Assembly: GCA_028724905.1 (NCBI GenBank) | Contig: JAQYTG010000017.1 | Coordinates: forward strand, 26,963-90,962 | Direction: 5' to 3' | Length of the DNA stretch: 64,000 bases | From: Actinomycetaceae bacterium | GTDB taxonomy: Bacteria; Actinomycetota; Actinomycetes; Actinomycetales; Actinomycetaceae | Shown: positions 3,514 to 41,018 of the stretch, in pieces | Layout of the letters: each line of letters starts with the position of its first letter | How positions within the stretch are numbered: the stretch's first letter is position 1 | Notes under the pieces: generated by a model | Seen by the model: only the letters and a program-made list of their open reading frames with translations | Told to the model about the DNA's origin: nothing | Database searches by the model: none | Translations under genes and position numbers: made by a program

Positions 3514-4638
3514 ATGGCTACTGTTACATTTGATCACGCAACTCGCGTATATCCTGGAGCTACCACCCCCGCTGTCGATCAGCTCAATCTCGAAATTGCA
3601 GACGGCGAATTTCTAGTGCTCGTCGGCCCATCCGGCTGCGGCAAATCGACTTCTCTGCGTATGCTCGCTGGCCTAGAGGACGTCAATGCTGGCCATATTT
3701 TCATTGGCGACCGCGACGTGACCGACGTTTCCCCGAAAGACCGCGATATCGCTATGGTCTTCCAGAACTACGCTCTCTATCCCCACATGACGGTGGCCGA
3801 CAACATGGGCTTCGCCCTCAAAATTGCTGGTGTCGATAAGGCTCAGATCCGCGCCCGCGTGGAGAAAGCTGCCGAGACTCTCGGCCTCACGGAATATCTC
3901 GATCGCAAGCCGAAAGCTCTTTCCGGTGGTCAGCGTCAGCGCGTGGCTATGGGGCGCGCTATCGTGCGCCAGCCACAGGTATTCCTCATGGATGAGCCGC
4001 TCTCGAACTTGGATGCGAAACTCCGCGTACAGACCCGCACTCAGATCGCTTCGCTGCAGCGCGACCTCGGCGTCACCACTCTCTACGTGACCCACGATCA
4101 GACTGAAGCACTGACGATGGGCGATCGGATCGCCGTGCTCAGCGCAGGCATCCTCCAGCAGGTAGCTAGCCCAGATGAGATGTTTACCAGACCGGCAAAC
4201 GTCTTCGTGGCTGGCTTCATCGGCTCGCCAGCTATGAACCTGGGCACCTGGCGGGTGGAAAACGGCGTGGCTAAGTTCGGCAAGGCACAGATCGCGCTGC
4301 CGCCAGCTGCTGCAGCTGAGGGCAACAAAGACGGCAAGATCGTTGTTGGTATGCGTCCTGAAGCATTCCAGCCGCTCTCCGCCTCTGCTGGAGAAGATAC
4401 GATCCCTGTGGACATCTCGTTCGTTGAGCACCTCGGCTCTGATGCCTACATTTACGGATCCGTGGCTGGCTCGGATCAGGAGACTGAGCTCTTTGGCTCT
4501 GGCGACAATTCCAGCACCATCACGGTGCGCGTGACTCCAGAGCACGTGCCCGCCGCTGGCGCCGCTATCACTCTTGCTCCGCGCCGCGATCATCTGCACT
4601 TCTTCTCTGCAGTTTCCGGCGAGCGCATCGGCGACTGA
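3514..4638 (+). CDS. msmK: Sugar ABC transporter ATP-binding protein (MsmK/MsiK/UgpC type), orphan
   Basis: GPSGCGKS Walker A, LSGGQRQR signature, FLMDEPLSNLD Walker B/D-loop and C-terminal TOBE region. No permease genes are adjacent. Confidence 0.92.
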   Translation: MATVTFDHATRVYPGATTPAVDQLNLEIADGEFLVLVGPSGCGKSTSLRMLAGLEDVNAGHIFIGDRDVTDVSPKDRDIAMVFQNYALYPHMTVADNMGFALKIAGVDKAQIRARVEKAAETLGLTEYLDRKPKALSGGQRQRVAMGRAIVRQPQVFLMDEPLSNLDAKLRVQTRTQIASLQRDLGVTTLYVTHDQTEALTMGDRIAVLSAGILQQVASPDEMFTRPANVFVAGFIGSPAMNLGTWRVENGVAKFGKAQIALPPAAAAEGNKDGKIVVGMRPEAFQPLSASAGEDTIPVDISFVEHLGSDAYIYGSVAGSDQETELFGSGDNSSTITVRVTPEHVPAAGAAITLAPRRDHLHFFSAVSGERIGD

Positions 4639-6360: not shown

Positions 6361-6495
6361 ATCTTATCGTGGGCACAGGCTGAATGAGCTCTACGTCTGC
6401 TTGCGCGTCACTCTGCTCGCAGGTTGATGTGGCATCTTGATGCATATCCTGATGCCGCATCGGTCAGTTTTGCCACCACGCAGGGAGGGTGATAG

Positions 6496-6741: not shown

Positions 6742-6793
6742 CCAGCCGGTGACACCCCGCCCCGAGGGAAAATTACTGGACGACGGCATCGCC

Positions 6794-9141
<2,348 letters not shown>

Positions 9142-9519
9142 GTGGTCTCCTTTGGCTGGAGGATAAACTACTTGCCAGTGTACGATAACGGCGCAATCCT
9201 CAGAAATTTTGCGATCTGCCACACACTATCGAGCGGCCTCTGAGCCGTATTGTGAGACGGCTCGCCATGCACGACGCTCAACAGCTGCTTGCGGCGGGTG
9301 TTTGCGGCAGCACTTACGGCGGAGCTTGCGGGCGCGATTACGGCAACACACTTCCCGCGGTGATTATGGCGTACTTACGGCAGATGGCTCCGGTGACGAT
9401 TGATGGATCAACCGATCCTTTTGCGGATGAGATTGCAGCCGCGATTACGGCAGCTCTTGCGGGCAGCTCTTACAGCGTTCAGCACTTACGGCTGCTATTA
9501 CGTACAGGCGATGTGCGGG

Positions 9520-9600
9520 TTTGAGGTATGGGTTTGAGGTATGGGTTTGAGATGCGAGTTTGAAATACGAGCTTGAGGTATAGATGTGAGATGCGAGTGA
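9520..9600. repeat. Degenerate ~13-bp tandem repeat (gtttgaggtatgg-like)
   Basis: gtttgaggtatgg x2, then gtttgagatgcga, gtttgaaatacga and gcttgaggtata. Confidence 0.75.
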
Positions 9601-9847
9601 TGTGCGCGAGCGCAGCTGGCGTGGAGGTGATACGGCGGCATCGCTGGAAAAAGTGACGGCAGTGGGGGATCCAGAAAGCGACTCTTATGGGCGGTAGGGG
9701 GCACCTACGGCGTGACCAATGGCGATGCAGCGGGCACACGCAACCTGCGCGTGTGCCCGTCATGCTGATGTAGCTTGAGTGTGCCCGTGCAGTTAGCGCG
9801 TTAGTTTTTATACCCGAATACATAGCACAATGCCCGCGCATCCTTCT

Positions 9848-9965
9848 ATATCGTTTAGTTGAGACCCGTCCACCCTGGGTAAGGCAGCGGACCGCCGTGC
9901 GATCACGACCCATCCCTCATATCTTTTAGTTGAGCCATATCGTTTAGTTGAGCCGCGTCCGCCCC
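9848..9965. repeat. Degenerate copies of the recR 3' end
   Basis: catatc(g/t)tttagttgagc occurs in tandem at 9918-9935 and 9936-9953 (the second contains the recR stop). A longer degenerate copy lies at 9848-9875. Confidence 0.85.
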
Positions 9966-10549
9966 TCAAGAGCGCGTGACAGGGTGATCTCATCCGCATA
10001 CTCCAGGTCTCCTCCCACGGGTAGACCTGAGGCGAGACGCGAAACCGTCACGCCCAAGGAAGCTAGATTGAGAGCCAAATAGGTGGCTGTCGCTTCACCC
10101 TCGATATTTGGATCTGTGGCGATGATGACTTCATTTACCTCGCCGCTGCGCAAACGGGCATACAGCTCACGGATTCGCAGCTGGTCTGGGCCAATTCCGC
10201 CGATTGGGTCAATCGCCCCACCCAGCACGTGATAGCGCCCGCGAAATTCGTGCGTGCGTTCAATAGCCACGATATCTTTACTCTCCTCCACCACGCAGAT
10301 CACAGCATCGGTGCGCCTCGGGTCCGAGCAAATACTACATATCTCCTGTTCTGTGACGTTCCCACAGATCGAGCAGAACCGCACCTTTTCCTTGACAGCT
10401 TCCAGAGCTTCCACGAGGGAGTGCACGTCAGCCTCATCTGCCTCCAGTAAATAAAACGCTATCCGCTGGGCACTTTTTGGCCCTACACCCGGCAGTCGCC
10501 CTAGCTCGTCAATGAGATCTTGAACGGCTCCTTCATATACACCAGCCAT
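9944..10549 (-). CDS. recR: Recombination protein RecR
   Basis: [11 protein letters not shown] HhH, CSICGN..CSIC zinc finger, Toprim domain and GDLEYAD. Confidence 0.97.
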
Positions 10550-10648
10550 TTGTCGTCACCTCTCTCATTCATGTCTCATCATTGCGCAGTTAGGTTCGTT
10601 GCGCAGTTAGATTTGCGTCCTCTCGCTAACAGCGTTTGTCTCGCCACC

Positions 10649-13600
10649 TCATCTGCCCGCCGCAGCGCCAGCATCATGAACAATCTCGGTGACGTCGCTG
10701 CCAGGGAAGACTTTAAGCACCACGTTGAGCCCCACGAGCGAGCTTTGAGATATCTCGGGATCGTCGGGGGAAACTTCATCCCACGGATTCTCATACTGCT
10801 GCTCTTCGCTCTCCTCAGGCTGCGCAGTGTCGACGACGGCTGCTGCACTTGCCGCCGCTTTGGCCGTCAGCTTTCCTAGGGCGTGCGAGCTAGAGAGCGC
10901 TGCACCAGACCCACCGTCTGCCGCATAGCGCTGAGCTAGCGACGGCGGTAAATGCTCCGGAGGCGGAGCTGGCATATCCTGGGCAGCATCTTCCTCAGGA
11001 GCAGCCGGATACGACGCAGACACGGCCACTATTGCCGTCGGTTCGTTTCCCTGCGCCCGCGTGACGCCAGAGCGCGCAGTGGGTGGTTGAGATTCTGGTG
11101 GCTCGGTGGCCGATGCGATGGCCGACTCGGTGGCCGCTTCTGTGGATGATGCGGCTAGTTCGGCGGGTGGTGCAGCCAATTGGATGGCCGATTTAGCCGG
11201 TTCGGTGGCTGATCTGGCCAGCTCAACTATCCTAGCGCCTGGCTCGACGGCTGGATTCTCGGGCAGTTCATCGGTTGCAGCAGTTAGACTCTCAGCTAGC
11301 TCGGCTAGCTCAACGTCCGGCTCATCAAGTGGGCTTTCAATCGTATCCCCGCCAGAATCCAATAACTGAGCGAGCACGCCAGCAGGGTCTGGCTCGTCCC
11401 CGTCGTCATTCAAACCATAGACCGGATCGAGTTCGGGAGCTTCATCGACCTCCAGCATATCGTCGTCTAGCACATCCGCCTCATCTGCTGATGCAGGCGC
11501 TGCTGGAGTGGCTCGTACCGGCGTGGACTCTGCCGGCCTGGATTTTGCTAGCGTAGACCCTGCCGGCACGGAGTCTACCAGCGAGAAATCTGCCCGCGCG
11601 GCAGGCGGCTCCGTTTCTGCTAGCTCAGGTTCTGCTAGGTCGGATTCAGCTAGGTCGGGTTCGGTTAGATCAGGGCGCGGCGGCGTAGCGTGTGCTGGCA
11701 ACGCCGGCTCTGGCTGTGCGGAGATGGTGTGCGTCTGCTGAGTCTCAAAGCTACGGCGTGACGGCGCTGGCTTGGCTTGAGCAGCAGTTCCCCTATCTCG
11801 CTTATCACCTTTTGGGTGGACATCAGCGGTGGGAGTACCCACATATCCTTCTACACGCAAAGATGTGTGCACCGTCTGCTCAAGGGAATGGACGAGGGCA
11901 GCTTGCGCACGCTTATTGCGGTTGAATCCGGCAGCCGTGCCCTCGTCGGTAAAGCCTACAGACAGCAAATCTCCCTCCAGAGCCAACGGACCAGTGGCGT
12001 GTTTGAGCATATTGCCCACAATCTTTGATTCAGCACTGGCCGTCGCCACGATGTGTGCCCACGATGATTGAACGAGCTCCCACGGGTTTGGGTTGGCTCG
12101 GCTGCTTTGGCTAAAGCTCTCTTGCCGAGCTTGGCCAGCCGTCTCCCCCGAAGCAGCGTTGGCAGCGCTCTTACGCTGATTGCCGCCAGCGCTCTCCTCC
12201 TTAGCCTGGCCAGCAGTATCAGGCCGCAGTTGGCCATCAGACCCCTGCCCAATACGGCCAGCTCTCTCGCGCTGACTGCTGGAATTTTCTGGCCGCACAG
12301 CTGCGTTCTCCGGTGCGTTCTCTGGCCGCAAATTTTTTGGCTGCACAGCTGCGTTCTCCGGCGCTTGTTCCGGCGTCTTGCCTGCAGCTTTCCCAGCATT
12401 GTTCCCAGAATTGCCCCGAGCAACATTCCTCACTGGATTCCCAGCAGCATTCCCCGCTGCTCCCGAATGATCGGGCACTAGCGCGGGCAGCGCCGAAGAA
12501 TCTGGCGCTACCGCCGCACTTCCAGCCTCAACCAAACCCTCAGCAGCTGGCACGGCTGACGAAACAGCAGAAACAGGCGGGGCGGACGGCAGCTCGGGCG
12601 CAAAACTCGGCATCGGCTGCCGCCTCGGATCGGCCAAAGCTGGCTGTGGCGGCGCCGGTGCAGCTCCCCCGCGGGAAAGCTCAGCCCCAGCAGACCGCCC
12701 TGCCCCCAGAGCGCCCGTATGCCCGATTCCCGCAGGCCAGCTCGGCTCAGATGCCGCAGCGTCATAAGCAGCGCCCGAGCCGCCGCCTACTCTCGCGGAA
12801 TCACTCGGCTGCGCCGAGTTTGCCCCAGCTGGCTCAGATGCCACAACTAACCGCGCACACAGCAATTCCAGCTGCATTCTCGGAGCGGTAGCCCCCACCA
12901 TCGCCGTCAATGCCTCATTGACTAAATCAGCGGCTCTCGAAGCCCGCGCTGCTCCGAGCTCATCTGCCTGGCTCACCATCAGCGCATACTGATCGTCCGG
13001 CACTGAGAGGAAGACGTCTTTCACGGAATCTCCGGCGAGCGCAATAATCACCACATCGCGCAACCGCTGCAAGAGATCTTCCACGAAGCGGCGCGGATCA
13101 TGGCCGCTTTTGACTACTTCATCCACCACGGTGAAAAGTGCAGCCCCATCGTGAGCCGCTATTGCCGTCACGGCTTGATCAAGCAGATGTGCCGACGTAT
13201 AGCCCAGCAGTGCCACTGCCCGATCATAATCGAGCTCGCTGCTTTGCGAACCGCCAATAATCTGATCGAGCACCGAGAGCGTATCGCGTACAGAGCCGGT
13301 GCCCGCGCGCACCACTAGGGAGAGCACATCTCGCCCTGCTTGCATCCCCTCACTACGGCACACCTGCGTCAAGTAATCCTCCAGGACGGCAGGGGGCACG
13401 AGCCGAAATGGATAGTGGTGAGTGCGAGAGCGGATGGTGTCGATTACTTTCTCCGGCTCAGTGGTGGCAAAGATAAACTTCACGTGCGGCGGCGGCTCTT
13501 CCACCAGCTTGAGTAAAGCATTGAAACCTTGATTGCTCACCATATGCGCTTCGTCAATAATGTAAATCTTGAAGCGATCTCGCACCGGCGCAAAACTCGC

Positions 13601-13933
13601 CTGTTCGCGCAATTCGCGGGCATCGTCCACGCCCCCGTGTGAGGCTGCATCTAGCTCCACTACATCCAATGATCCCGAGCCATCACGCGATAGTTCTCGG
13701 CAGGAATCGCACTCTCCACAGGGCGTATCTGTGGGGTACTCAGCACAGTTCAAACAGCGCGCCAGAATACGTGCCGACGTCGTTTTCCCGCATCCGCGCG
13801 GACCAGAAAAAAGGTAGGCATGATTTGTGTTGCCTGCAGCGAGCGCAGCCATCAGCGGTTTAATCACGTGCTCCTGGCCAATCACCTCTTGAAAGGTTTC
13901 AGGCCGGTAGCGGCGGTAGAGAGCTTTAGTCAC
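10649..13933 (-). CDS. dnaX: DNA polymerase III subunit gamma/tau with very long low-complexity linkers
   Basis: LYRRYRP, GPRGCGKT, CxxC cluster, IIDEAHM, FIFATTE and TIRSRT. Conserved actinobacterial C-terminal WDEVSPDD motif. Confidence 0.95.
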   Translation of the reverse strand: MTKALYRRYRPETFQEVIGQEHVIKPLMAALAAGNTNHAYLFSGPRGCGKTTSARILARCLNCAEYPTDTPCGECDSCRELSRDGSGSLDVVELDAASHGGVDDARELREQASFAPVRDRFKIYIIDEAHMVSNQGFNALLKLVEEPPPHVKFIFATTEPEKVIDTIRSRTHHYPFRLVPPAVLEDYLTQVCRSEGMQAGRDVLSLVVRAGTGSVRDTLSVLDQIIGGSQSSELDYDRAVALLGYTSAHLLDQAVTAIAAHDGAALFTVVDEVVKSGHDPRRFVEDLLQRLRDVVIIALAGDSVKDVFLSVPDDQYALMVSQADELGAARASRAADLVNEALTAMVGATAPRMQLELLCARLVVASEPAGANSAQPSDSARVGGGSGAAYDAAASEPSWPAGIGHTGALGAGRSAGAELSRGGAAPAPPQPALADPRRQPMPSFAPELPSAPPVSAVSSAVPAAEGLVEAGSAAVAPDSSALPALVPDHSGAAGNAAGNPVRNVARGNSGNNAGKAAGKTPEQAPENAAVQPKNLRPENAPENAAVRPENSSSQRERAGRIGQGSDGQLRPDTAGQAKEESAGGNQRKSAANAASGETAGQARQESFSQSSRANPNPWELVQSSWAHIVATASAESKIVGNMLKHATGPLALEGDLLSVGFTDEGTAAGFNRNKRAQAALVHSLEQTVHTSLRVEGYVGTPTADVHPKGDKRDRGTAAQAKPAPSRRSFETQQTHTISAQPEPALPAHATPPRPDLTEPDLAESDLAEPELAETEPPAARADFSLVDSVPAGSTLAKSRPAESTPVRATPAAPASADEADVLDDDMLEVDEAPELDPVYGLNDDGDEPDPAGVLAQLLDSGGDTIESPLDEPDVELAELAESLTAATDELPENPAVEPGARIVELARSATEPAKSAIQLAAPPAELAASSTEAATESAIASATEPPESQPPTARSGVTRAQGNEPTAIVAVSASYPAAPEEDAAQDMPAPPPEHLPPSLAQRYAADGGSGAALSSSHALGKLTAKAAASAAAVVDTAQPEESEEQQYENPWDEVSPDDPEISQSSLVGLNVVLKVFPGSDVTEIVHDAGAAAGR

Positions 13934-14228
13934 GCTCTCTATCTTACGCTGTGGCTACCGAAAAATTTCACGCGAAAAATCTGCCGTTAAGGCCGGTTGA
14001 TACATTGGTTGATACAATTGGCCAGACCGATAATATCAACCTGATAGCGACCCTCCCGCTCTCCGGCTGTTCTCCGGCTTTTCTTCAACTTTTCTCGGGC
14101 CAGTCTCTGAGCGTTCTTTGGCTCTTCTCTGGTTTTATGGCCACTCTCTAGCCATTCCTCGCCGTGCGCGGCGCCGTGAGATACTGCGCTCGCGCAGAAA
14201 CGCACGAAACGCTGGCAGCCACGCCATC

Positions 14229-15038
14229 TCAGCGCTGAAGAACGGCGAGCAGCTCCTCCACCGTGGGCTGCCCAGGAGCCGAGCCAGCGCCCACCGTGGC
14301 AAAAGTAGCCACTGAGCCGTATCTAGTACCCTCGAAACGCGATCGTTTCCCAGCATTTCCCATCGCAATAGCCATCACTGCCCGCCCAGAACTGCGCGCC
14401 ACGCGAGCGCACACATCCAGCAAAGCCTGCACATCGGCGTCATCGTGAGGCATGACGGCGAGCTTCGCCACCACCCCTGGAAGCTCCAACATATCCTCAT
14501 AGACAATCTGCATAATCTCAGGATCGGGAGTCTCGAACCAATCGTGATGCGAAATGACGACAGTACATCCCAATTCCTGAGCACGCGCAGCCAATGCGGG
14601 CGTCCCTTCAAACCAGTGTTCTAGATCAATAGCAATACGCTCAGGCGGCACGTCAATATGCACCAAAGTATCGAGCATTTCCGCCAGCAAAAGCCGGTAT
14701 CTTCCCGCAGTGAGTCTGGCTTCCCCGCCCTGCCCATTTGTGCGGATAGTGAGCAGTAGCGGCACCTGCGTCGCCGCCACAATCGGAGCCACCACTTCTC
14801 TGCCGAGCGGAGCAAAAGATAGCTGTTCGTGGGTGGCCAGCATAAAATCACTGCGCCACTCCAGAATATCTGCGCCAGCATCCTCAGCCAGCTTTGCTTC
14901 TTCTACAAGCATTTGAGCCGTTGTACCCGTCAGCGGCACAATCACCGACGGCCGATCCCGTAGCCGTTCACCATCTGCACCATACGCTGGCGCGAAGACC
15001 TCAGCTGCCGTGCGGGCGCGGCATAGTTTCTCACTCAC
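14229..15038 (-). CDS. aroD: Type I 3-dehydroquinate dehydratase
   Basis: EWRSDF, TIRTNGQGG, SHHDWFETP, KLAVMP (Schiff-base Lys), MG..G..SR and SAPGQ. A GTG start at 15038 overlaps the upstream gene end. Confidence 0.88.
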   Translation of the reverse strand: MSEKLCRARTAAEVFAPAYGADGERLRDRPSVIVPLTGTTAQMLVEEAKLAEDAGADILEWRSDFMLATHEQLSFAPLGREVVAPIVAATQVPLLLTIRTNGQGGEARLTAGRYRLLLAEMLDTLVHIDVPPERIAIDLEHWFEGTPALAARAQELGCTVVISHHDWFETPDPEIMQIVYEDMLELPGVVAKLAVMPHDDADVQALLDVCARVARSSGRAVMAIAMGNAGKRSRFEGTRYGSVATFATVGAGSAPGQPTVEELLAVLQR

Positions 15039-33738: not shown

Positions 33739-34181
33739 ACTCTCTAAATACTCAGCTTCTGCCGTCTCACGGTCGCTCAACGTCGAACGCAAAGGCAACG
33801 CCTTAATGGCAAAGTGAGCATAAACATCACAGCGATCACTGGTAGGCTACCCACAAACACCCAGTGCAAGCGGTCTGCAAGGCCAGCACGCACGGCCACA
33901 GCGTTGGCCTCCCACAGCGGCTAACCTGCCATCAGCTAAGCCAACCGCCAACCCGCCGGTCAGCCAAAACGCCAGACAGCCAGGCAAAGAGCGGCAACTG
34001 GTCATCACGCTGGCCCCAATACTGACGAGGCGCTCACGACCGACGCGCCACCCACTCACCACCAAGTGGGCGGCGTCCTTAGCTCGTTCTGTCGATGCTT
34101 TTGCCTGCACCCACCCGATGCGCTACCCACTCCGTCTGGGTGGACGCCACTCACACGGGCGCCCACCCAGACGGCAGGAAC

Positions 34182-34403
34182 TTATTTCTTTTTAGGCATC
34201 TTCCTCTTCGGATCAGAAAAGGCTGCATTGTAGACAAACAAGGCCGTCAAAAGCAGAACTACTCCAACGAGCATAATGATGAGCCCGCTCATCTTCCCCT
34301 CTTGAAACCATCCGAGGAATACACATACCATGCCGAGCACGAAGAAACACAGAATCAAAATGATCCGTAGCCCCGTATTTCGCTTCATAAAGTCATTCAT
34401 CAT
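34182..34403 (-). CDS. Small two-TM membrane protein at the end of the sugar ABC operon (DUF6903-like)
   Basis: 73 aa, two TM helices and a basic tail. It abuts the permease stop. Confidence 0.75.
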   Translation of the reverse strand: MMNDFMKRNTGLRIILILCFFVLGMVCVFLGWFQEGKMSGLIIMLVGVVLLLTALFVYNAAFSDPKRKMPKKK

Positions 34404-35273
34404 TTAGCCTTTCAACCCGCCAAGAGTCATGCCTTGAGTGAGTTTCTTCTGCACGATCATGTACAGGATCAGAGTTGGGAGCATCACCAGCACCAGACCA
34501 GCATACAAACGCCCAAACTCCGCTTTCGCCTGCTGCGCCTGCGTGAGCTCCAGCAAACCAACTGGCAAAGTCTTCGAGCCGTTGGGATCCGTGAGTAACG
34601 TCATCGCGATAATGTATTCGTTCCAGAACGATAGGAAATTGAAGAGAATAATCGTAATGATCGCAGGCTTTGCCATTGGGAACATGATCTGAACCATTGT
34701 GCGGAAATATCCTGCACCGTCGATATATGCCGCTTCTTCAAAATCATGCGGAAGAGTCTGGAAATATCCACTCAGAAGGTAAATAGTGAACGGCAATGCG
34801 TTCGAGGCATACACCAGCGACACGATGAAAGGATTATTCAAGAAAAATCCAGATAATCCGAGCGACCTCAAGAATTTGTCTCCATCGACCAGCATCAAGA
34901 AGATCGGCACCACGATATAGCTGGCGTTAATAAAGAGGCCGGCCATGAATGCAGTGTTGAGGAATTTTCTGCCGATAAAGTTGAAGCGAGACAATACGTA
35001 TGATGCCGGCAACGCGATCGCAAGTAGCAAAAGTAATGCGACGCCGGTCACGAGCACCGACGTAAGCATATAATCACCCATGCGGGCTTTCGTCCAGGCA
35101 TCAATGAAATTCTGGAAGTAGATCGTCTCTGGAAGCGTCCAGGGGTTTCCGTATAGCTCTTTATTCTGTTTCACGGAGGCGATGAAAACCCACGCCACCG
35201 GCACAATGATAGAGATGGCTAGCGCAATCAGAGCCACGTAAACGAATACTCGATATAGCTTAAAAGTTTTCAT
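34404..35273 (-). CDS. Carbohydrate ABC transporter permease (MalG-like)
   Basis: EAA motif EEAAYIDGAG and FLSFWNEY. Confidence 0.93.
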   Translation of the reverse strand: MKTFKLYRVFVYVALIALAISIIVPVAWVFIASVKQNKELYGNPWTLPETIYFQNFIDAWTKARMGDYMLTSVLVTGVALLLLLAIALPASYVLSRFNFIGRKFLNTAFMAGLFINASYIVVPIFLMLVDGDKFLRSLGLSGFFLNNPFIVSLVYASNALPFTIYLLSGYFQTLPHDFEEAAYIDGAGYFRTMVQIMFPMAKPAIITIILFNFLSFWNEYIIAMTLLTDPNGSKTLPVGLLELTQAQQAKAEFGRLYAGLVLVMLPTLILYMIVQKKLTQGMTLGGLKG

Positions 35274-35283
35274 AGCTTGACCC

Positions 35284-36261
35284 CTAGAATTCGAGTACTT
35301 CACGCTCAGTCACCTTATTGACAGCTGCAGCAAGGAGGAAAGAGAACAAGAAGACAACAACGCCGATCGCCATACCATACCCGTACACAGCATTTGTGTA
35401 TGCCTGCGTGTACATATACGTAAGCACTACCTCAGATTTCCCATTAGGACCACCGCTCGTCATCGCCGTCACGAACAAGAAAGCCATGTTGATAGTCGAA
35501 ATGATGAAGAATGTAAGAGTTGTACGAATGTTCGTCCAGATCAATGGGATAGTAACGGTGAAGAACTGTTTAAACTGTGACGCACCGTCCAAGGAGGCAC
35601 TTTCGTACAGGCTCTCAGGAACACTGGCGATAGATGCCATATACATCACCATGTAGTAGCCGATCGCTTGCCATACCATAGCAACGACAAGGGAGAGCAT
35701 CACCAGCTTCTCACCTTTCCATAGAATGCGGATGTTCTCAGCAGAGAATATGGATAGGAACGAATTGAGCAAGCCATTATCGGGTAGATAAATCGCCGAG
35801 AAAATTGCTGAAATAACGACGATTGACAAAATGTTTGGAATGTAAAAAATTACTCGGAAGAAATTCTCGCCCTTTACTTTGTCTCTTGCCAGGATGGATG
35901 CAAAGACTAGCGACAAAGCAAACGTAATAATCGTGACGACAACGACCAAAAGTATGGTGTTTTGGAACGCTTTGATGAATCCTGTATCGTGCGACAGTTT
36001 TTCGAAGTTGCTCAATCCCACGAAGGTTTTTTCATCAGAGTATGCCGACCCGCGGAATAAGGACATCCAAAAAACTTGAAGGGTGGGAAAGACCATGAAG
36101 ATAAGGAAAAGAACTGTGGCCGGTGTGATACACAGGGCGATAAACAAATTGCGAGAAGAATGGCCACGATAGCGTTTTTTAGCTGAATTTTTCGCCGGTT
36201 TTTTAGCTGAATTTTTAGCCTGTTGATCATCAAGGACGGCTAAGGCTGCGTGCTCCGCCAT
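35284..36261 (-). CDS. Carbohydrate ABC transporter permease (MalF-like)
   Basis: EAA motif YESASLDGAS, VGLSNF and FFRVIFYIPN. Confidence 0.93.
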   Translation of the reverse strand: MAEHAALAVLDDQQAKNSAKKPAKNSAKKRYRGHSSRNLFIALCITPATVLFLIFMVFPTLQVFWMSLFRGSAYSDEKTFVGLSNFEKLSHDTGFIKAFQNTILLVVVVTIITFALSLVFASILARDKVKGENFFRVIFYIPNILSIVVISAIFSAIYLPDNGLLNSFLSIFSAENIRILWKGEKLVMLSLVVAMVWQAIGYYMVMYMASIASVPESLYESASLDGASQFKQFFTVTIPLIWTNIRTTLTFFIISTINMAFLFVTAMTSGGPNGKSEVVLTYMYTQAYTNAVYGYGMAIGVVVFLFSFLLAAAVNKVTEREVLEF

Positions 36262-36301
36262 CAATACCCCCTTTAACGAGTGCTAGTAGTGCGGTGTTAG
36301 A

Positions 36302-36342
36302 CGAGAGGGGCACAGCACGGCATTCCGGCTGTGCCCCTCTCG
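36302..36342. terminator. Intercistronic stem-loop after the binding-protein gene
   Basis: Perfect 15-bp arms cgagaggggcacagc / gctgtgcccctctcg. This is the typical position for an mRNA-stabilising or attenuating hairpin. Confidence 0.7.
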
Positions 36343-36374
36343 ATTCGTTACCCTAAATCTGGGGAATGAATGTC

Positions 36375-37724
36375 TTACTTATTGAGGAGTGGGCGCACCT
36401 TATCATTGAGTTCTTTAATGCCCTGAACCCACTGATCCTGCGTCATCGTTCCAGCCACCAAGCTGTCGATTGGCTTGAAGAAGACATCTTTCCACTCAGT
36501 GCCTTCAAGCTGGAAGTTGGTGTTCATAGCACCCACGGCAGCTTTTGCACCGTTCTCATAGATGCCGTACACAGCCTTCTTGTCCTCTGGCATGAACTTG
36601 GTAGCGTTCACGATTGGCTGGAAAGCAGGGCTGCTGGTTGAAGCAAATGCCTCAGCAGCTTTGTCGCTGTAGAGGAATGCCACGAACTGCTTAGCCTCAG
36701 CCTGATTGGCAGCCTTGGCAGGCACCCAAGCCTGCTCGAAGAAGGTGGTGGAGTAACGATCGCCGCCAGCCTTGAATGCTGGAAGAGCAATGCTGCCCCA
36801 CTGGAAGCCTTCTGCGCGAGGAGCATCAGCCATTTCACCAACGACCCAATCTCCGTTAGGCATGAAGATGGCTTTGTCGTCGAGGACGAGCTGCTGGTTC
36901 TTGGTGAAGTCAGTTGCGTTTGCCTGAGCAGGAACAACGGGATCGGTGTAGGTGGCGATCTTCGCAATCACATCAAAGATCTGCTTAGCCTCAGGAGTAT
37001 CCCACACACCTTCTTCCCAGTTAGTAGCAGACTTGAAGAAGTCCTCGCCACCAGCCTGGTAGAGCATAGCGTAGAAGAAAGCGTCGAAATATCCGGCTGT
37101 TGGATAGGAGAAGAGGTAAATACCCTCAGCCTTGGCTTTATCGCCAAGTGCCCACATCTCATCCCACGTGGTGGGAACTTCCCAGCCCTTGCTCTTGAGC
37201 AAATTTGCGTCATAGTACAGGCCGCATGGGGTGTAGAACATAGGAGCAAGATACATCTTGCCGTCACCATACGGATCGGTATTTGCGCTGTTCAAAATGC
37301 CAGGAATGAGTTTCTCCTGAACGGTCACATCCTCACCAGGAACCTTAGAAGCGAGTACGTCGCTCAAATCGGTGAGTGCCTTATCTTTCACCATCGTTTC
37401 CGTCAGCCCTTTTTCACGGCCAAGTGCCATGTGGACAACGTCTGGGAAGCTACCAGATTGCATCTGCGAACCCAAAGTATCTTCTAGGTTCTTTGCAGTC
37501 TGAAGCTCTACTTTAATGCCAGTTTCTTCTTCGAAAGCCTTAGCGACGGCTTTCCAGCCATCAGTGCCATAAGCAGTTTCAACTGCAGCTACCTTGATGG
37601 TCTTATTGGTGGCTGCCCCCCCCTGGTTGGGCTTGGGGGATTCGGCCGACGGCGAAGAACCGCACGCGCCCAAGCCAAGCGCAGCAGCGCAGAGCACAGC
37701 CGCAACTTTCGCAATTCTCTTCAT
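36375..37724 (-). CDS. Carbohydrate ABC transporter substrate-binding lipoprotein (CPR0540/TIGR03850-like)
   Basis: Lipobox LGAC, YG..GW..VAKAF, PYGDGKMYLAPMFYTPCGLYY, VPTTWDEM and FMPNGDW. Subfamily assigned from recall. Confidence 0.88.
   Translation of the reverse strand: MKRIAKVAAVLCAAALGLGACGSSPSAESPKPNQGGAATNKTIKVAAVETAYGTDGWKAVAKAFEEETGIKVELQTAKNLEDTLGSQMQSGSFPDVVHMALGREKGLTETMVKDKALTDLSDVLASKVPGEDVTVQEKLIPGILNSANTDPYGDGKMYLAPMFYTPCGLYYDANLLKSKGWEVPTTWDEMWALGDKAKAEGIYLFSYPTAGYFDAFFYAMLYQAGGEDFFKSATNWEEGVWDTPEAKQIFDVIAKIATYTDPVVPAQANATDFTKNQQLVLDDKAIFMPNGDWVVGEMADAPRAEGFQWGSIALPAFKAGGDRYSTTFFEQAWVPAKAANQAEAKQFVAFLYSDKAAEAFASTSSPAFQPIVNATKFMPEDKKAVYGIYENGAKAAVGAMNTNFQLEGTEWKDVFFKPIDSLVAGTMTQDQWVQGIKELNDKVRPLLNK
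37607..37685. repeat. 79-bp direct repeat, copy 1 (lipobox region of the SBP gene)
   Basis: Identical to 40875-40953 and includes a C8 tract. Confidence 0.95.
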
Positions 37725-38007
37725 AAATCTCTCCCTTTCAGAGTGTGAAGCAAATCAATGAAAATCATCTTCGATAAAACTTTGCTTCTGATGGCAGAAT
37801 ACTACTGATTTCTGCTGAGGAAAACTGAAAAAAGTCCATAATGAATGGATTGTTATCTTGTTGTGACCAATGCTTATGCGTCGTGATTGGCAAACTCCAA
37901 AATAATCAACAAAATGATTGATTTTCTGCAGTGACGCGCAGAGAAGCTCATATACCGTACCACACAAGCGATCTTTACCGCGCATATTCAAACGCCAGCC
38001 CTTTTAC

Positions 38008-38077
38008 TTTTTCACCGCGACGCACTGGTAGTGACGGCACACATTTTTCACCGCGACGCACTGGTAGTGACGGCACA
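38008..38077. repeat. 36-bp-period tandem duplication next to the GH95 stop
   Basis: tttttcaccgcgacgcactggtagtgacggcaca at 38008-38041 and 38044-38077. Its core resembles the gene's last codons (ccggtagtaacggcaca). Confidence 0.9.
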
Positions 38078-38087
38078 GCAGTAGTGG

Positions 38088-40733
38088 CTACACGCCGGTA
38101 GTAACGGCACACTGGTAGCGATGGCCAGGAACCGTTGAGAAGACGTTGAGCACATGATCAATATGTTCCACCTCAACGCTCAGATGCGTGCAGCAATCCG
38201 TCACCGAAGCAATCACCCCAGAGTTCAAACGCAGAGCAGCTGTTCCTCCCTGCGCAGCGATGATATCTAGCCGCGATATTTCCCCGTCTTCCCACTCCAT
38301 CGCCAGCGTAAACCCTCCGCGGGCGGCGAGGCCTTTCACAGCTCCATGCTTTGCCCACACTGCAGGTAATGCTGGCAGACAGTGAATGTAGTAGGGATAC
38401 GTTTTTCCGCCCGCCGATTCATACGTGGCGTTAGATTGCACAAGCAGCTCACATATACCAGCAGTTAGCCCAAAATTTCCATCTATCTGGAAAGGAGGGT
38501 GCCGATCAAAGAGATTCGGATAGATCCCTTGCGCGCAAAAAGCCTCAAGACACTCATAGGCATTGTCTCCGTAGCCCGTTCGCGCCCAAGAATTGAGTCT
38601 TTGCGCCAGCCCCCATCCGGTCGCGTTGTTTCCCCGCATATTTAGGCTCTGCACAGCTGCAGCCATATACTGCGGGCGATCAATCGTTATAAAATTTCCT
38701 GGATAAAGACCCAGCAGGTGTGAGAGATGCCGGTGCTGCAGCTGATAATGCTCAATTTCAGAACCGTCACGGTAGCAGCCGAGGGCACCCTCGTCATACC
38801 ATTCCTTAATCTGCCCGGAATCGCCCACGTCCACGGGATGCAACAGCTCCACAGCTCCACGCAATGAACGATTCGCCTGAGGGTCGGCAAATTCTCCATC
38901 TCTGTCCCATAGGCGCACCCAATGCGAGGACACGCACCCCTCAGCTGAACCCAGCAGATCGTCGTCAGCTCCAAGCCGTTCAGTAGCCTCAATGGTATCC
39001 GTGAATAGCTGCCATATCAGCACTTGTTCATAGGTATTGCCATCTGTAGCAACCGGCCCGTGTTCGGGCGAATATGCAGGTGCACACACCAACCGAGTTG
39101 TTCCATAAGCGTCCGTGGCAGGATGGAGTATCTTCTCAAGATAGAGAACGCACGATTCTCGAAGAAGTGGATACACCCGCTCTCGGAGCAGATCCTCATC
39201 CCCCACAAACAGGTAGTAGTCGTAGAGCTGATGCAGTATCCACGGAATTACAGCTGGGCTCCACCCCCACGAAAATACTGCACCTGGAGTCGTCCAGCCG
39301 AAAGGAGTATTTTCGGTGTGTACCATATAGCCGCTGCCCTTGCTACCATCAGTACCCGCATACACACGTGCAGTGATTCGTCCAGGTTCCACCAGGTTTT
39401 CCACGAAAGCAATCAGCGGCTCCATGCACTCCCACAGTTGGGTGCTGGCCGTATGCCAGTAATTCATTTGAAGATTCACGTTCAGGTGATAGTCAGATCG
39501 CCAGATATTCTCGCCGTTGGTATCCTGAGCTCCGAATGCCCACACACCTTGCAAATTCGCTGGCAGTAAACTATCGCCCCTCGAACTCGCCACCAGCAGA
39601 TAGCGGCCATAAGCAAAGAGCAGCATATAAAGATACCGATATTGCTCCGGAGAAGCTACTCCTTGAGCGCATTTCGATACCAATACGTCGGTAGCATCTG
39701 CTCCATCCTGCCCATATAGTTGCAACTCAGTATCGCCGAGCACTCTGCTCATGTCGGCAAGGTGATCACTACGCACCGCTGCGTACCCTCGACGCGCAGC
39801 CATCGCCGTCACGCCCTCAGCTCGTCGGCACACATCCCCCAGCTTCTCGCCCGTACGGTACACAGGAAAGTTGGCAGCGTAATCAGTTGCTAGATGTATA
39901 TAGATCGTGACGGCGTTCGCATCCGTGATACGCAAACGGCCAGTAGGCACCTGCGGATCTGCATCTTGCGAATCTGCGTCTAAAAACTTGCATGAGGCAT
40001 GGCCGGCTTCGATGCGCATATCTGCAACGTAGTGCAGCCCGTTGTTGTGCAGTTGCCCGCCCAAACTGAGATGCCCATCTGAAAGCTCCACCGCAACCCT
40101 CTCGTGGTTGAGTTCAGAGTTGTGGGCAGAACGCAGATCGACGTCCACCGCAAAAGTTCCGTGATCCACCTCAAGGCGCACCACGAGCACGTCGTCGGGG
40201 TGAGAGACAAAATAGCTGCGGGAAAAGCGCTGATGGCGAAGACGATACGTCACGTTTACGATACCGGAGGCAAGATCTAATGAGCGGTGATAATCATCCA
40301 CATCAGCAGAAGTAAGATCTGGAAAATGCAGCCACAAATCGCCAAAACGCTGATAGCCTCCATACTCATCTTCCCTATTGAGCCCACCCAAAAGCCCTGA
40401 AGCAGCGAGGTTTTGAGCTTCTTCAATACGGCCTGCTTCACATAAACTCTGCACCTGCCGGAGAGTGGCGCCAAACTGCCCGTGATCTTCTGAATTGCCT
40501 CCGGAGTATGTACTGGTGGAGCCTGGCCCTCCCGTCCACAACGTTTTCTCATTGAGCACAATACGCTCATTGCGCAGTTCACCGTATACCGTGGCACCCA
40601 TATCGCCGTTGCCAATGGGCAATGTGGTCTGCTGCCAACGATTTCCCTCCACACCCTGTTCGCTGGCATCTGCCAGATCGTCTCGATACAGAAGGGGAGT
40701 TAAAGAAGCGGGTTGATCATAGCGACATTTCAT
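38088..40733 (-). CDS. Glycoside hydrolase family 95 (1,2-alpha-L-fucosidase-like), no signal peptide
   Basis: LPIGNGDMGA, YGRYLLVASSR, PANLQGVW, DYHLNVNLQMNYW, SPEHGP, HRHLSHL and HPPFQIDGNFG. Confidence 0.92.
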   Translation of the reverse strand: MKCRYDQPASLTPLLYRDDLADASEQGVEGNRWQQTTLPIGNGDMGATVYGELRNERIVLNEKTLWTGGPGSTSTYSGGNSEDHGQFGATLRQVQSLCEAGRIEEAQNLAASGLLGGLNREDEYGGYQRFGDLWLHFPDLTSADVDDYHRSLDLASGIVNVTYRLRHQRFSRSYFVSHPDDVLVVRLEVDHGTFAVDVDLRSAHNSELNHERVAVELSDGHLSLGGQLHNNGLHYVADMRIEAGHASCKFLDADSQDADPQVPTGRLRITDANAVTIYIHLATDYAANFPVYRTGEKLGDVCRRAEGVTAMAARRGYAAVRSDHLADMSRVLGDTELQLYGQDGADATDVLVSKCAQGVASPEQYRYLYMLLFAYGRYLLVASSRGDSLLPANLQGVWAFGAQDTNGENIWRSDYHLNVNLQMNYWHTASTQLWECMEPLIAFVENLVEPGRITARVYAGTDGSKGSGYMVHTENTPFGWTTPGAVFSWGWSPAVIPWILHQLYDYYLFVGDEDLLRERVYPLLRESCVLYLEKILHPATDAYGTTRLVCAPAYSPEHGPVATDGNTYEQVLIWQLFTDTIEATERLGADDDLLGSAEGCVSSHWVRLWDRDGEFADPQANRSLRGAVELLHPVDVGDSGQIKEWYDEGALGCYRDGSEIEHYQLQHRHLSHLLGLYPGNFITIDRPQYMAAAVQSLNMRGNNATGWGLAQRLNSWARTGYGDNAYECLEAFCAQGIYPNLFDRHPPFQIDGNFGLTAGICELLVQSNATYESAGGKTYPYYIHCLPALPAVWAKHGAVKGLAARGGFTLAMEWEDGEISRLDIIAAQGGTAALRLNSGVIASVTDCCTHLSVEVEHIDHVLNVFSTVPGHRYQCAVTTGV

Positions 40734-40874
40734 CGCGGCAATTCTAGCGAAAAATAACCGCCACCACTCGGAATTGCCACGTTACGCAATCAACACGAAA
40801 AAGAGGGGGTTCTCAGACCCTCAGCCCGTCTAGCCCACTCTGATGCTGTCTCGTGGTTAGGGCTGTTCGTGCCG

Positions 40875-40953
40875 TGGTGGCTGCCCCCCCCTGGTTGGGC
40901 TTGGGGGATTCGGCCGACGGCGAAGAACCGCACGCGCCCAAGCCAAGCGCAGC
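40875..40953. repeat. 79-bp direct repeat, copy 2 (non-coding, upstream of GH95)
   Basis: Identical to 37607-37685. Similarity continues degenerately for ~13 bp (ggccgtagagcac vs agcgcagagcac). Confidence 0.95.
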
Positions 40954-40982
40954 GGCCGTAGAGCACGAAGACGAAGAAAAAG

Positions 40983-41018
40983 AGGGGGATCCCTACTCGT
41001 ATGAGTAGGGATCCCCCT
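40983..41018 (-). terminator. Intrinsic terminator of the surface-protein gene
   Basis: Perfect 16-bp stem agggggatccctactc / gagtagggatccccct with a GTAT loop. It is followed by CTTTTTCTTC on the minus strand. Confidence 0.85.

What the first reader, a model, noticed from the sequence alone, without database searches (positions are those of the whole stretch)
34182..40733. LNB/GNB-type (CPR0540-like) ABC importer paired with a cytoplasmic GH95 fucosidase instead of a GH112 phosphorylase
Seen: the gene order is GH95 (no signal peptide), SBP, two permeases and a small membrane protein, with no phosphorylase, kinase or regulator in the window. Known: the CPR0540/TIGR03850 SBP family usually co-occurs with galacto-/lacto-N-biose phosphorylases, and GH95 enzymes cleave alpha-1,2-fucose (or alpha-L-galactose). 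Inference: the locus imports intact fucosylated type-1 or core-1 H-antigen trisaccharides from mucosa and removes the fucose inside the cell. It was probably acquired from Firmicutes-like donors.
Basis: partly seen in the sequence, partly recalled or inferred. Interest (0 to 1): 0.55.

Follow-up and report, generated by a model that had tools for sequence, protein, structure and literature searches.

The report
Host-sugar importer beside internal fucosidase
An Arcanobacterium-like bacterium has an importer for the host-glycan disaccharides GNB and LNB sitting directly behind a fucose-removing enzyme that stays inside the cell; this is a rearranged gene layout of a pathway already described in gut Bifidobacterium and Roseburia, not a new kind of system.

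Summary
On the minus strand lie a signal-less AfcA-type GH95 (38088-40733), a TIGR03850 lipoprotein SBP (36375-37724), two permeases and a DUF6903 mini-protein (34182-34403). No phosphorylase, kinase or sugar regulator was found among the window ORFs scanned.

- The SBP's closest solved relative is Blon_0883 (BiGFL-BP), which binds GNB, LNB, H1 and Lewis-a. All six disaccharide-contacting residues are conserved. The three fucose-pocket residues are not; they match the GH112-linked homologues.
- GH112 is not missing. It sits on another contig in a GNB/LNB/GalNAc locus. In the sister species that locus still carries this transporter cassette.
- An 82-nt, 99%-identical copy of the SBP signal region flanks GH95, marking a recent rearrangement.
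- The transporter clade is nested in Bacillota, but it is shared with two sister species. GH95 is Actinomycetaceae-type, the only signal-less copy found in the genus, and sits on a long branch.
- Of about 100 TIGR03850 loci sampled, 82 carry GH112 and none carries a cytoplasmic GH95.

Most likely the locus imports GNB/LNB, possibly also H-type trisaccharides, removes fucose inside the cell, and passes the product to GH112. Interest is low to moderate.

The parts
40875..40956 (-). Relic copy of the SBP lipoprotein-signal and linker codons (AAALGLGACGSSPSAESPKPNQGGAAT). It has no start codon and ends in a stop before GH95. It is one arm of an 82-nt direct repeat.
   Evidence: the repeat finder family D11, 99% identity, spacing 3268 nt. 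Alignment, translation. Also found as a 48-aa SBP-like hit.
40741..40746 (-). TAGAAT hexamer 7 nt upstream of the GH95 ATG, with no Shine-Dalgarno sequence. Candidate -10 box of a leaderless GH95 transcript (inference only).
   Evidence: Read directly from the sequence. The sigma-70 consensus scan did not call it.
38088..40733 (-). Cytoplasmic AfcA-type GH95 1,2-alpha-L-fucosidase, 881 aa. Carries H416, N418, N420, E557 and D751, equivalent to AfcA H419, N421, N423, E566 and D766.
   Evidence: Pfam. PDB 2EAB at 741 bits, with alignment. Residue positions. No signal peptide.
37725..38087 (-). AT-rich (43% GC) GH95-SBP spacer. It holds two perfect 34-nt tandem repeats (38008-38077) and the SBP ribosome-binding site (AGGGAG). 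No terminator-like structure was found, so read-through from GH95 is plausible.
   Evidence: Sequence, repeats D14, fold z-score -0.08 for 37990-38090, GC content.
36375..37724 (-). Lipoprotein substrate-binding protein of the TIGR03850 / BiGFL-BP family. Contains the second arm of the 82-nt repeat at 37607-37688.
   Evidence: TIGR03850 at 605 bits. PDB 9H0N at E 2e-120. Binding-site columns.
36302..36342 (-). GC-rich hairpin between the SBP and permease genes. Likely an intercistronic stabiliser or attenuator.
   Evidence: Self inverted match. Fold of -45 kcal/mol, z-score -6.2.
35284..36264 (-). ABC permease 1 (UgpA/MalF-like)
   Evidence: Pfam BPD_transp_1, NCBIfam. 79% identical to the permease of sister species G006.
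34404..35303 (-). ABC permease 2 (MalG/UgpE-like)
   Evidence: Pfam BPD_transp_1. 84% identical to the G006 permease.
34182..34403 (-). DUF6903 small membrane protein, 73 aa, two hydrophobic helices. Also present at the end of the cassette in G006 and in one Lachnospiraceae locus.
   Evidence: Pfam PF21844, E 7.5e-11. tblastn hits in L002 and L021.
34132..34174 (-). Strong hairpin just after the DUF6903 stop codon. Likely the operon terminator (no T-tract).
   Evidence: Sequence. Fold of -44 kcal/mol, z-score -5.85.
3514..4638 (+). The only MalK/MsiK-type ATPase found in the genome. Probable energiser of this and the other sugar ABC importers, acting in trans.
   Evidence: PF17912 search of the own genome gave a single hit. 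Pfam ABC_tran, OB_MalK and TOBE_2.

Best explanation
The locus is a CUT1-type ABC importer specific for Gal-beta-1,3-HexNAc disaccharides: galacto-N-biose (GNB) from mucin core 1 and lacto-N-biose (LNB) from type-1 chains. Its parts are a lipoprotein SBP, two permeases and a DUF6903 mini-protein. The ATPase is supplied in trans by the single MsiK-like protein at 3514-4638.

A recent rearrangement has placed the importer directly downstream of a cytoplasmic AfcA-type GH95 1,2-alpha-L-fucosidase.

Proposed flow:
1. Secreted GH101, GH20, GH29 and GH95 enzymes, encoded elsewhere in the genome, trim host glycans outside the cell.
2. The SBP captures GNB or LNB, and probably also the alpha-1,2-fucosylated H type 1 and type 3 trisaccharides.
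3. Inside the cell GH95 removes the fucose. No FucI or FucU was found, so the fucose is probably not catabolised.
4. GH112, on another contig, phosphorolyses the disaccharide to Gal-1-P plus GlcNAc or GalNAc, which enter the UDP-sugar pyrophosphorylase, ROK, AgaS and tagatose route encoded around GH112.

What is shown and what is inferred:
- Shown by sequence: family memberships, conserved catalytic and disaccharide-binding residues, absence of an export signal, presence of GH112 elsewhere, and the repeat scar.
- Inferred: uptake of fucosylated ligands, co-transcription of GH95 with the importer, and use of MsiK.

My sub-confidences are about 0.85 that the importer takes GNB/LNB, about 0.8 that GH95 is an active cytoplasmic alpha-1,2-fucosidase, and about 0.5 that the two are coupled through imported fucosylated trisaccharides.
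For: - TIGR03850 scores 605 bits against a cut-off of 299.
- The best PDB hit is 9H0N/Blon_0883 at E 2e-120. That protein binds GNB, LNB, H1 and Lewis-a, and its knockout impairs uptake.
- The equivalents of T205, Y208, D210, W290, E294 and E327 are all conserved (T209, Y212, D214, W293, E297, E330). Five of them are invariant or nearly so (75-76 of 76) across the homologues checked; T205 is T in 72 of 76 Firmicutes rows and V in the Blon_0883-like group.
- GH95 scores 741 bits against AfcA, with the His, Asn-x-Asn, Glu and Asp active-site residues intact.
- There is no signal peptide. No terminator-like fold lies between GH95 and the SBP, whereas strong hairpins follow the SBP and the DUF6903 gene.
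- GH112 (950 bits) is present with a full downstream pathway.
- The sister-species locus L002 carries GH112-SBP-permease-permease-DUF6903 at the site where this genome lacks the cassette.
- Secreted GH101, GH29, GH20 and a second GH95 are present.
- A single MsiK-like ATPase is present.
- The same logic has been shown experimentally in R. inulinivorans: an ABC importer with intracellular GH95, GH29 and GH112.
Against: - The fucose cavity of BiGFL-BP (F44, S100, T101) is replaced by V48, R103 and E104. These are exactly the residues of the GH112-linked Firmicutes and Arcanobacterium homologues. A conserved Arg could even block the O2 substituent of Gal.
- The 82-nt scar shows the juxtaposition is recent, so it could be incidental.
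- The only two GH95 genes found beside related cassettes (L034 and L122) are secreted enzymes. That fits defucosylation outside the cell followed by import of the plain disaccharide.
- The genome already has a secreted GH95.
- No fucose catabolism genes were found.
- No operator shared with the GH112 locus was found.
- GH95 sits on a very long branch (0.99).
Confidence: 0.55

Rival explanations
1. The importer takes only unsubstituted GNB and LNB, like its GH112-linked relatives. The adjacency to GH95 is a by-product of the rearrangement. The cytoplasmic GH95 acts on alpha-1,2-fucosylated sugars, such as 2'-fucosyllactose, brought in by one of the other sugar ABC systems in the genome.
For: - The side-pocket residues are identical to those of the GH112-linked homologues.
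- The recent 82-nt scar flanks GH95.
- GH95 appears to have its own promoter-like element.
- Eight to nine other family-1 SBPs exist in the genome, one of them next to GH101.
- In bifidobacteria, cytoplasmic GH95 is typically paired with fucosyllactose importers. The 49%-identical metagenome loci L110, L119 and L123 have only a distant permease nearby.
Against: - No terminator-like fold lies between GH95 and the SBP.
- The rearrangement has been kept with all five ORFs intact.
- Blon_0883 shows this fold can accept an alpha-1,2-fucose.
- No fucosyllactose-type importer was identified here, although I did not search for one specifically.
Confidence: 0.3
2. The GH95 is a decaying remnant of a secreted AfcA-like enzyme that lost its signal peptide and anchoring domains. 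It no longer has a physiological role, and the locus is simply a relocated GNB/LNB importer.
For: - All of its closest relatives for which I read the N-terminus have a signal peptide, and nearly all relatives are much longer multidomain proteins.
- It has the longest terminal branch in the tree (0.99 against a median of 0.21) and an odd amino-acid composition.
Against: - The 881-codon frame is intact. All five active-site residues and all three Pfam domains score strongly.
- About one substitution per site without a single stop codon or frameshift argues for purifying selection.
Confidence: 0.08
3. The SBP has drifted to a different ligand, for example chitobiose or another HexNAc-containing disaccharide, as in NgcE. 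The system would then be unrelated to GNB and LNB.
For: - There is a secondary hit to TIGR03851 (NgcE) at 179 bits.
- The SBP is only about 70% identical to its nearest relatives.
- Position S92 is unusual; it is D or E in nearly all homologues.
Against: - The NgcE score is far below its cut-off of 399, while TIGR03850 is twice its cut-off.
- All six Gal/HexNAc-contacting residues of BiGFL-BP are conserved.
Confidence: 0.05

Closest known systems
BiGFL-BP (Blon_0883) ABC importer of Bifidobacterium longum subsp. infantis; PDB 9H0N, 9H0O, 9H0P; bioRxiv 10.1101/2025.02.07.637197
   Same: - Same SBP family: phmmer E 2e-120 over residues 19-441.
- The equivalents of the Gal and HexNAc contact residues T205, Y208, D210, W290, E294 and E327 are conserved.
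- Both are lipoprotein SBPs with two permeases.
- In both, the imported sugar is defucosylated in the cytoplasm and then cleaved by GH112 encoded elsewhere.
   Different: - About 44-47% identity only; the window SBP belongs to the Firmicutes-type branch.
- The fucose-pocket residues F44, S100 and T101 are V, R and E here.
- From my own knowledge, not checked here: the Blon_0883 locus carries nagA and nagB rather than a GH95.
Roseburia inulinivorans HMO/mucin locus: RiLea/bBP ABC importer with RiFuc95, RiFuc29, RiGLnbp112 and GH136 (PMC7335108)
   Same: An ABC importer of (fucosylated) LNB and GNB is coupled to a signal-less GH95, and GH112 finishes the pathway.
   Different: - In Roseburia, GH112, GH29, GH136, a sensor kinase and a regulator are all in the same locus. 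Here only GH95 is, and GH112 is on another contig.
- I could not test whether RiLea/bBP is a TIGR03850 member. None of 20 Lachnospiraceae TIGR03850 loci sampled had a GH95.
Canonical TIGR03850 (CPR_0540-type) SBP-permease-permease-GH112 clusters of Clostridia, Paenibacillus, Cutibacterium and Arcanobacterium
   Same: - The SBP scores above the equivalog cut-off, and the permeases are 60-84% identical.
- The same small DUF6903 gene ends the cassette in L002 and L021.
   Different: - GH112 is missing from the locus and a GH95 occupies the upstream position that GH112 holds in sister species G006.
- This is the only cytoplasmic GH95 partner among about 100 loci sampled.
AfcA, the 1,2-alpha-L-fucosidase of Bifidobacterium bifidum (GH95 founding member, PDB 2EAB)
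   Same: The catalytic domain aligns over residues 5-843 at 741 bits. The Asn-x-Asn, Glu and Asp catalytic residues and the fucose-type His are conserved.
   Different: AfcA and all close Actinomycetaceae relatives are secreted, multidomain, cell-anchored proteins of 1160-1540 aa. This one is 881 aa with no signal peptide and no accessory domains.

Membership tests
TIGR03850 (bind_CPR_0540) carbohydrate ABC substrate-binding protein | Full-length HMM score above the curated equivalog cut-off (299 bits) | tested here: met
   605.4 bits, covering residues 2-444 against profile positions 1-436 of 437.
TIGR03850 (bind_CPR_0540) carbohydrate ABC substrate-binding protein | Genomic linkage to a GH112 galacto-/lacto-N-biose phosphorylase (TIGR02336) | tested here: not met
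   No GH112 was found in the locus or among the window ORFs scanned, and the own-genome search gave a single GH112 hit, on contig C1. Linkage is seen in 65 of 80 and 17 of 20 related loci. Co-occurrence in the same genome is met; adjacency is not.
BiGFL-BP-like GNB/LNB binders | Conserved Gal and HexNAc contact residues (T205, Y208, D210, W290, E294, E327 of Blon_0883) | tested here: met
   T209, Y212, D214, W293, E297 and E330; six of six conserved.
BiGFL-BP-like GNB/LNB binders | Fucose-accommodating side cavity lined by F44, S100 and T101 | tested here: not met
   V48, R103 and E104, the same as in GH112-linked Firmicutes homologues. Whether a cavity still exists cannot be judged from sequence alone.
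CUT1-type binding-protein-dependent ABC importer | Lipoprotein or secreted SBP, plus two BPD_transp_1 permeases, plus a MalK/MsiK-type ATPase | tested here: met
   Lipobox LGLGAC. Two permeases. A single MsiK-like ATPase at window 3514-4638. Whether this ATPase actually pairs with the permeases cannot be tested here.
GH95 1,2-alpha-L-fucosidase (AfcA type) | GH95 N-terminal, catalytic and C-terminal domains | tested here: met
   PF14498 at 166 bits, PF22124 at 390 bits, PF21307 at 63 bits.
GH95 1,2-alpha-L-fucosidase (AfcA type) | Inverting catalytic machinery: general acid Glu566, and Asn421/Asn423 activated by Asp766 (AfcA numbering, from my knowledge of Nagae et al. 2007) | tested here: met
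   E557, N418, N420 and D751 align to these positions.
GH95 1,2-alpha-L-fucosidase (AfcA type) | His at the AfcA His419 position. From memory of Rogowski et al. 2015 (not checked here), this marks the fucosidase type, while alpha-L-galactosidase members have Thr. | tested here: met
   H416.
GH95 1,2-alpha-L-fucosidase (AfcA type) | Hydrolysis of Fuc-alpha-1,2-Gal linkages | not testable with these tools
   Needs an enzyme assay.
GNB/LNB pathway (GH112-based, as in Bifidobacterium lnpABCD) | GH112 phosphorylase plus enzymes that process Gal-1-P and HexNAc, present in the genome | tested here: met
   GH112 at 950 bits, flanked by a UDP-sugar pyrophosphorylase, a ROK kinase, a SIS (AgaS-like) protein, a class II aldolase, a PfkB kinase, an amidohydrolase and two DeoR regulators.

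The most novel reading that the evidence does not exclude
This locus could be a snapshot of a bacterium switching strategy for fucosylated host glycans. In this reading, a member of the otherwise secreted Actinomycetaceae AfcA clade lost its signal peptide and anchoring domains. It evolved quickly as a cytoplasmic enzyme. A duplication-associated rearrangement, marked by the 82-nt scar, then wired it to a GNB/LNB importer that had been pulled out of the GH112 operon. The result would be a dedicated module for importing H-antigen trisaccharides and defucosylating them inside the cell, running alongside the ancestral outside-the-cell (B. bifidum-like) route in the same genome.
Probability: 0.3. 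Interest if true: 0.5.

Novelty: new variant of a known kind. Interest (0 to 1): 0.3.

Why it matters
If the coupling is real, the BiGFL-BP/TIGR03850 importer family would reach fucosylated host glycans outside infant-gut bifidobacteria, in an animal-associated Actinomycetaceae lineage.

It would also be a clean natural example of operon rewiring. The transporter cassette was removed from its phosphorylase operon and joined to a newly cytoplasmic fucosidase, and the recombination scar is still visible.

Practically, the SBP is a ready test of whether the Firmicutes-type pocket (Val, Arg, Glu) tolerates alpha-1,2-fucose. That would tell us how to read the hundreds of GH112-linked homologues in gut Clostridia.

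If the coupling is not real, this is an ordinary GNB/LNB importer in an unusual place.

Tried and rejected
- **Independent assemblies.** I could not confirm the arrangement in other assemblies.
- **Recent horizontal transfer by composition.** Rejected. The low GC of the permeases reflects amino-acid make-up. GC3 of the SBP and permeases (0.54-0.61) is in the range of the native genes checked (0.49-0.64).
- **GH95 as a recent copy of the genome's own secreted GH95.** Rejected. They are only 47% identical and lie in different subclades.
- **GH95 from Firmicutes.** Rejected.
- **Relic signal peptide fused to GH95.** Rejected. The relic has no start codon and ends in a stop 80 nt before the GH95 ATG.
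- **Shared operator.** I searched the locus and the GH112-locus promoters for shared 10-mers and 7-nt-arm palindromes and found nothing convincing. The palindrome conserved upstream of the SBP in G006 and G012 is absent here.
- **Closer GH95 relatives or the same gene pair in metagenomes.** The best match is 49% identical. The only neighbouring GH112 (L122) goes with a membrane-anchored GH95.
- **Lachnospiraceae survey for a Roseburia-like TIGR03850 plus GH95 locus.** 0 of 20 loci had a GH95.
- **Neighbours of the TIGR03850 loci that lack GH112.** No fucosidases among them.
- **Remnants of the cassette at the own GH112 locus.** None detectable in the 340-bp spacer.
- **Structure prediction.** Not run, because the tools return no coordinates for a cavity analysis.

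Full report
**1. What is there**

The minus strand between 34182 and 40733 carries five intact genes.
- An 881-aa GH95 (38088-40733) has the three GH95 Pfam domains.
- A 449-aa substrate-binding protein (SBP, 36375-37724) scores 605 bits on TIGR03850, whose cut-off is 299.
- Two BPD_transp_1 permeases lie at 35284-36264 and 34404-35303.
- A 73-aa protein with two predicted membrane helices (34182-34403) is a DUF6903 member.

The SBP begins with a lipoprotein signal (…LGLGAC). GH95 has only 16 in-frame codons above its ATG. Its N-terminus is hydrophilic and aligns to the AfcA catalytic domain from residue 5. It therefore cannot carry a classical export signal.

The neighbours are unrelated to sugar use: adenylosuccinate lyase, an RlmC-like methyltransferase, an MFS exporter, a 1515-aa surface protein and a Fic protein. 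The window ORFs I scanned include no phosphorylase, sugar kinase or sugar regulator; the remaining ORFs were not scanned.

**2. The transporter**

The SBP's only close solved relative is PDB 9H0N/9H0O/9H0P (E 2e-120). This is Blon_0883, or BiGFL-BP, of B. longum subsp. infantis. According to the paper, that protein binds GNB and LNB best and binds the H type 1 and Lewis-a trisaccharides about four-fold more weakly. It does not bind lactose or fucosyllactoses. Its gene disruption impairs Lewis-a and H1 uptake.

I mapped its published contact residues onto the window protein.
- The residues that hold Gal and GlcNAc/GalNAc are all conserved. T205, Y208, D210, W290, E294 and E327 correspond to T209, Y212, D214, W293, E297 and E330. 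Five of them are invariant or nearly so (75-76 of 76) in the homologues aligned; T205 is T in 72 of 76 Firmicutes rows and V in the Blon_0883-like group.
- The three residues that form the fucose pocket (F44, S100, T101) are V48, R103 and E104 here.
- That Val/Ile/Leu-Arg-Glu combination is the norm in the Firmicutes-type, GH112-linked homologues. Arg occurs in 68 of 76 and Glu in 43 of 76.
- The only unusual residue is S92, which is Asp or Glu almost everywhere else.
- The paper's 'Q89' does not match residue 89 of the deposited chain, which is Asn. Gln is at position 98. I treated this as ambiguous.

The sequence therefore strongly supports a Gal-beta-1,3-HexNAc importer. It neither supports nor excludes tolerance of an alpha-1,2-fucose.

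No ATPase is encoded in the locus. The genome has a single MalK/MsiK-type ATPase, and it lies in the same window at 3514-4638.

RNA folding gave three results:
- a strong hairpin follows the SBP gene (z-score -6.2);
- another follows the DUF6903 gene (z-score -5.85);
- no significant structure lies between GH95 and the SBP (z-score -0.08).

**3. The fucosidase**

GH95 scores 741 bits against the B. bifidum AfcA catalytic domain. It keeps H416, N418, N420, E557 and D751, which align to AfcA H419, N421, N423, E566 and D766.

Its nearest relatives anywhere are at most 53% identical. Nearly all are 1160-1540-aa multidomain proteins of Schaalia, Arcanobacterium and Trueperella, and every one whose N-terminus I read has a signal peptide. 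In a tree it falls inside this Actinomycetaceae clade, apart from the Firmicutes and Microbacterium clade. Its terminal branch is very long: 0.99 against a median of 0.21.

It is the only signal-less GH95 found in the 16 genomes of the genus that I searched. The same genome also has a secreted 1428-aa paralogue at 47% identity. An intact 881-codon frame after that much divergence argues for a functional enzyme that has changed compartment, not a pseudogene.

A TAGAAT hexamer lies 7 nt before the ATG and there is no Shine-Dalgarno sequence. This suggests a leaderless transcript. It is an inference only.

**4. GH112 is not missing; it has been separated from the transporter**

The genome is 2.06 Mb in 23 contigs and 92.6% complete. 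Its nearest named relative is an Arcanobacterium MAG.

GH112 is encoded on contig C1 (950 bits). It lies among a UDP-sugar pyrophosphorylase, two DeoR regulators, an AgaS-like SIS protein, a class II aldolase, a PfkB kinase, a ROK kinase and an amidohydrolase.

The sister species (G006, locus L002) has the same locus gene for gene, with orthologues 82-94% identical. There, GH112 is followed by SBP-permease-permease-DUF6903. In this genome those four genes are absent from that site, and only an unrelated 340-bp spacer remains.

The window's cassette is the only TIGR03850 copy in the genome. It is more diverged from the G006 cassette than the flanking orthologues are: SBP 71%, permeases 79% and 84%, DUF6903 61%. 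In the SBP tree the window protein and the G006/G012 pair sit on similar branch lengths from their common node (0.37 against about 0.3). This is not simply acceleration on one side. I cannot tell relocation with divergence apart from replacement by a related copy.

**5. A recombination scar**

An 82-nt stretch of the SBP gene (37607-37688, the codons for AAALGLGACGSSPSAESPKPNQGGAAT) is repeated at 99% identity at 40875-40956. That second copy lies between the terminator of the surface-protein gene and GH95. It has no start codon and runs into a stop.

The two arms bracket GH95, the 363-bp spacer, and the SBP's own ribosome-binding site and first 12 codons. The closest relatives of the SBP are only about 70% identical, so a 99% repeat must have arisen recently in this lineage.

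In G006 the two flanks of the roughly 7-kb island (about 33.9-41.0 kb) lie 51 kb apart. The region is therefore a rearrangement point, not a simple insertion site.

I found it independently.

**6. How unusual the pairing is**

- Among 80 related loci, mostly Clostridia and Paenibacillus, 65 have GH112 beside the cassette. About half of the remaining 15 are cut by contig ends.
- Among 20 further Lachnospiraceae loci, 17 have GH112.
- A GH95 is nearby in only one of these 100 loci (L034), and that protein has a signal peptide.
- Searching the other way, from GH95 in metagenomes, gave one contig with permease-GH112-GH95 (L122). Again the GH95 is membrane-anchored.

A cytoplasmic GH95 next to this importer was not seen anywhere else.

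**7. Origin**

The clade formed by the window, G006 and G012 SBPs is nested several nodes deep inside Bacillota sequences. The tree was rooted with the Blon_0883-like actinomycete group, and SH-aLRT support is 99-100. A Cutibacterium protein at 68% identity suggests the clade is wider among Actinobacteria.

An old transfer of the transporter from Firmicutes is therefore supported, but not a recent one (GC3). It is not supported for GH95.

**8. Physiological context**

- The genome encodes a secreted GH101 endo-alpha-GalNAc-ase, which releases GNB (1714 aa).
- It also has a cluster of very large (1100-1460-aa) GH20 (BbhI-like), GH29, GH20 and GH95 enzymes; a signal peptide was read only for the GH95. 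This is a B. bifidum-like toolkit for working outside the cell.
- FucI and FucU were not found, with the caveat that the genome is 92.6% complete.

Fucose is therefore probably a blocking group to be removed, not a nutrient.

**9. Best reading and comparison with what is known**

The scheme of importing (fucosylated) LNB or GNB, defucosylating it with an intracellular GH95, and phosphorolysing it with GH112 is established for R. inulinivorans (PMC7335108) and for B. infantis. This locus is a differently wired version of it.
- The importer is a bona fide TIGR03850/BiGFL-BP family member.
- GH95 is a bona fide AfcA-type enzyme.
- GH112 acts from another locus.

The step that would make the locus interesting is uptake of H-type trisaccharides. 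That step is plausible but unproven, and the pocket residues argue mildly against any special adaptation.

I put the full coupled model at 0.55. The alternative, a plain GNB/LNB importer with incidental adjacency, is at 0.30. Decay of GH95 or a changed ligand share the remainder.

It is a new variant of a known kind, of low to moderate interest.

Noticed in passing
window 38008-38077 (and 38078-38110): Two perfect 34-nt tandem repeats lie directly after the GH95 stop codon. A third, degenerate copy forms the last codons and the stop of GH95: HRYQCAVTTGV*, compared with RHYQCVAVKN and RHYQCVAVKK when read through. The fold of this region is no more stable than shuffled sequence.
   Followed up: partly
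window 36174-36221: An in-frame 24-nt tandem duplication (92% identity) lies near the 5' end of permease 1, in its non-conserved N-terminal extension.
   Followed up: no
L109 (own genome contig C19:56000-75000), ORFs at 2610-7754 and 7901-14342: A secreted GH101 (1714 aa) is followed by a second sugar ABC system (632-aa SBP, two permeases), a LacI regulator and a DUF624 protein. This SBP is not a GL-BP or BiGFL-BP relative; its best PDB hit is a 'maltose-binding protein' at 107 bits. It may be another route for GH101 products.
   Followed up: partly
L088 and own genome contig C7:22-43 kb: A cluster of very large (1100-1460-aa) host-glycan hydrolases, presumably secreted: GH20 (1444-aa frame), GH29 (1460-aa frame), a BbhI-like GH20 with CBM32 (1101 aa), and an AfcA-like GH95 with a signal peptide (at least 1418 aa, cut by the contig end).
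   Followed up: partly
L002:7528-7964 and L101 (upstream of the SBP in sister species G006 and G012): A conserved 34-nt perfect palindrome, ATCGGAACTCGTCAAAATTTTGACGAGTTCCGAT, lies upstream of the SBP in G006, with a close variant in G012. It looks like an operator and is absent from the window's SBP upstream region.
   Followed up: partly
L101 (G012:C37): In G012 the orthologous cassette sits next to a GH112 that is only 52% identical to this genome's GH112. The cassette has therefore changed phosphorylase partner or locus more than once in the genus.
   Followed up: no
L103-L108 (G001, G002, G003, G008, G011, G016): Other species of the genus and family carry a different, Blon_0883-like branch of the SBP family, 44% identical to the window SBP. 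It keeps F and G at the F44 and G47 positions but has Q and K at S100 and T101.
   Followed up: partly
window 40983-41018: A perfect 16-bp GC-rich hairpin followed by a T-tract: the intrinsic terminator of the 1515-aa surface-protein gene. It directly abuts the SBP relic.
   Followed up: yes
own genome (whole): No FucI (TIGR01089) or FucU/RbsD (PF05025) was detected, despite two GH95 genes and one GH29. Released fucose is probably not catabolised by the classical route. The genome is 92.6% complete, and the non-phosphorylative route was not searched.
   Followed up: partly
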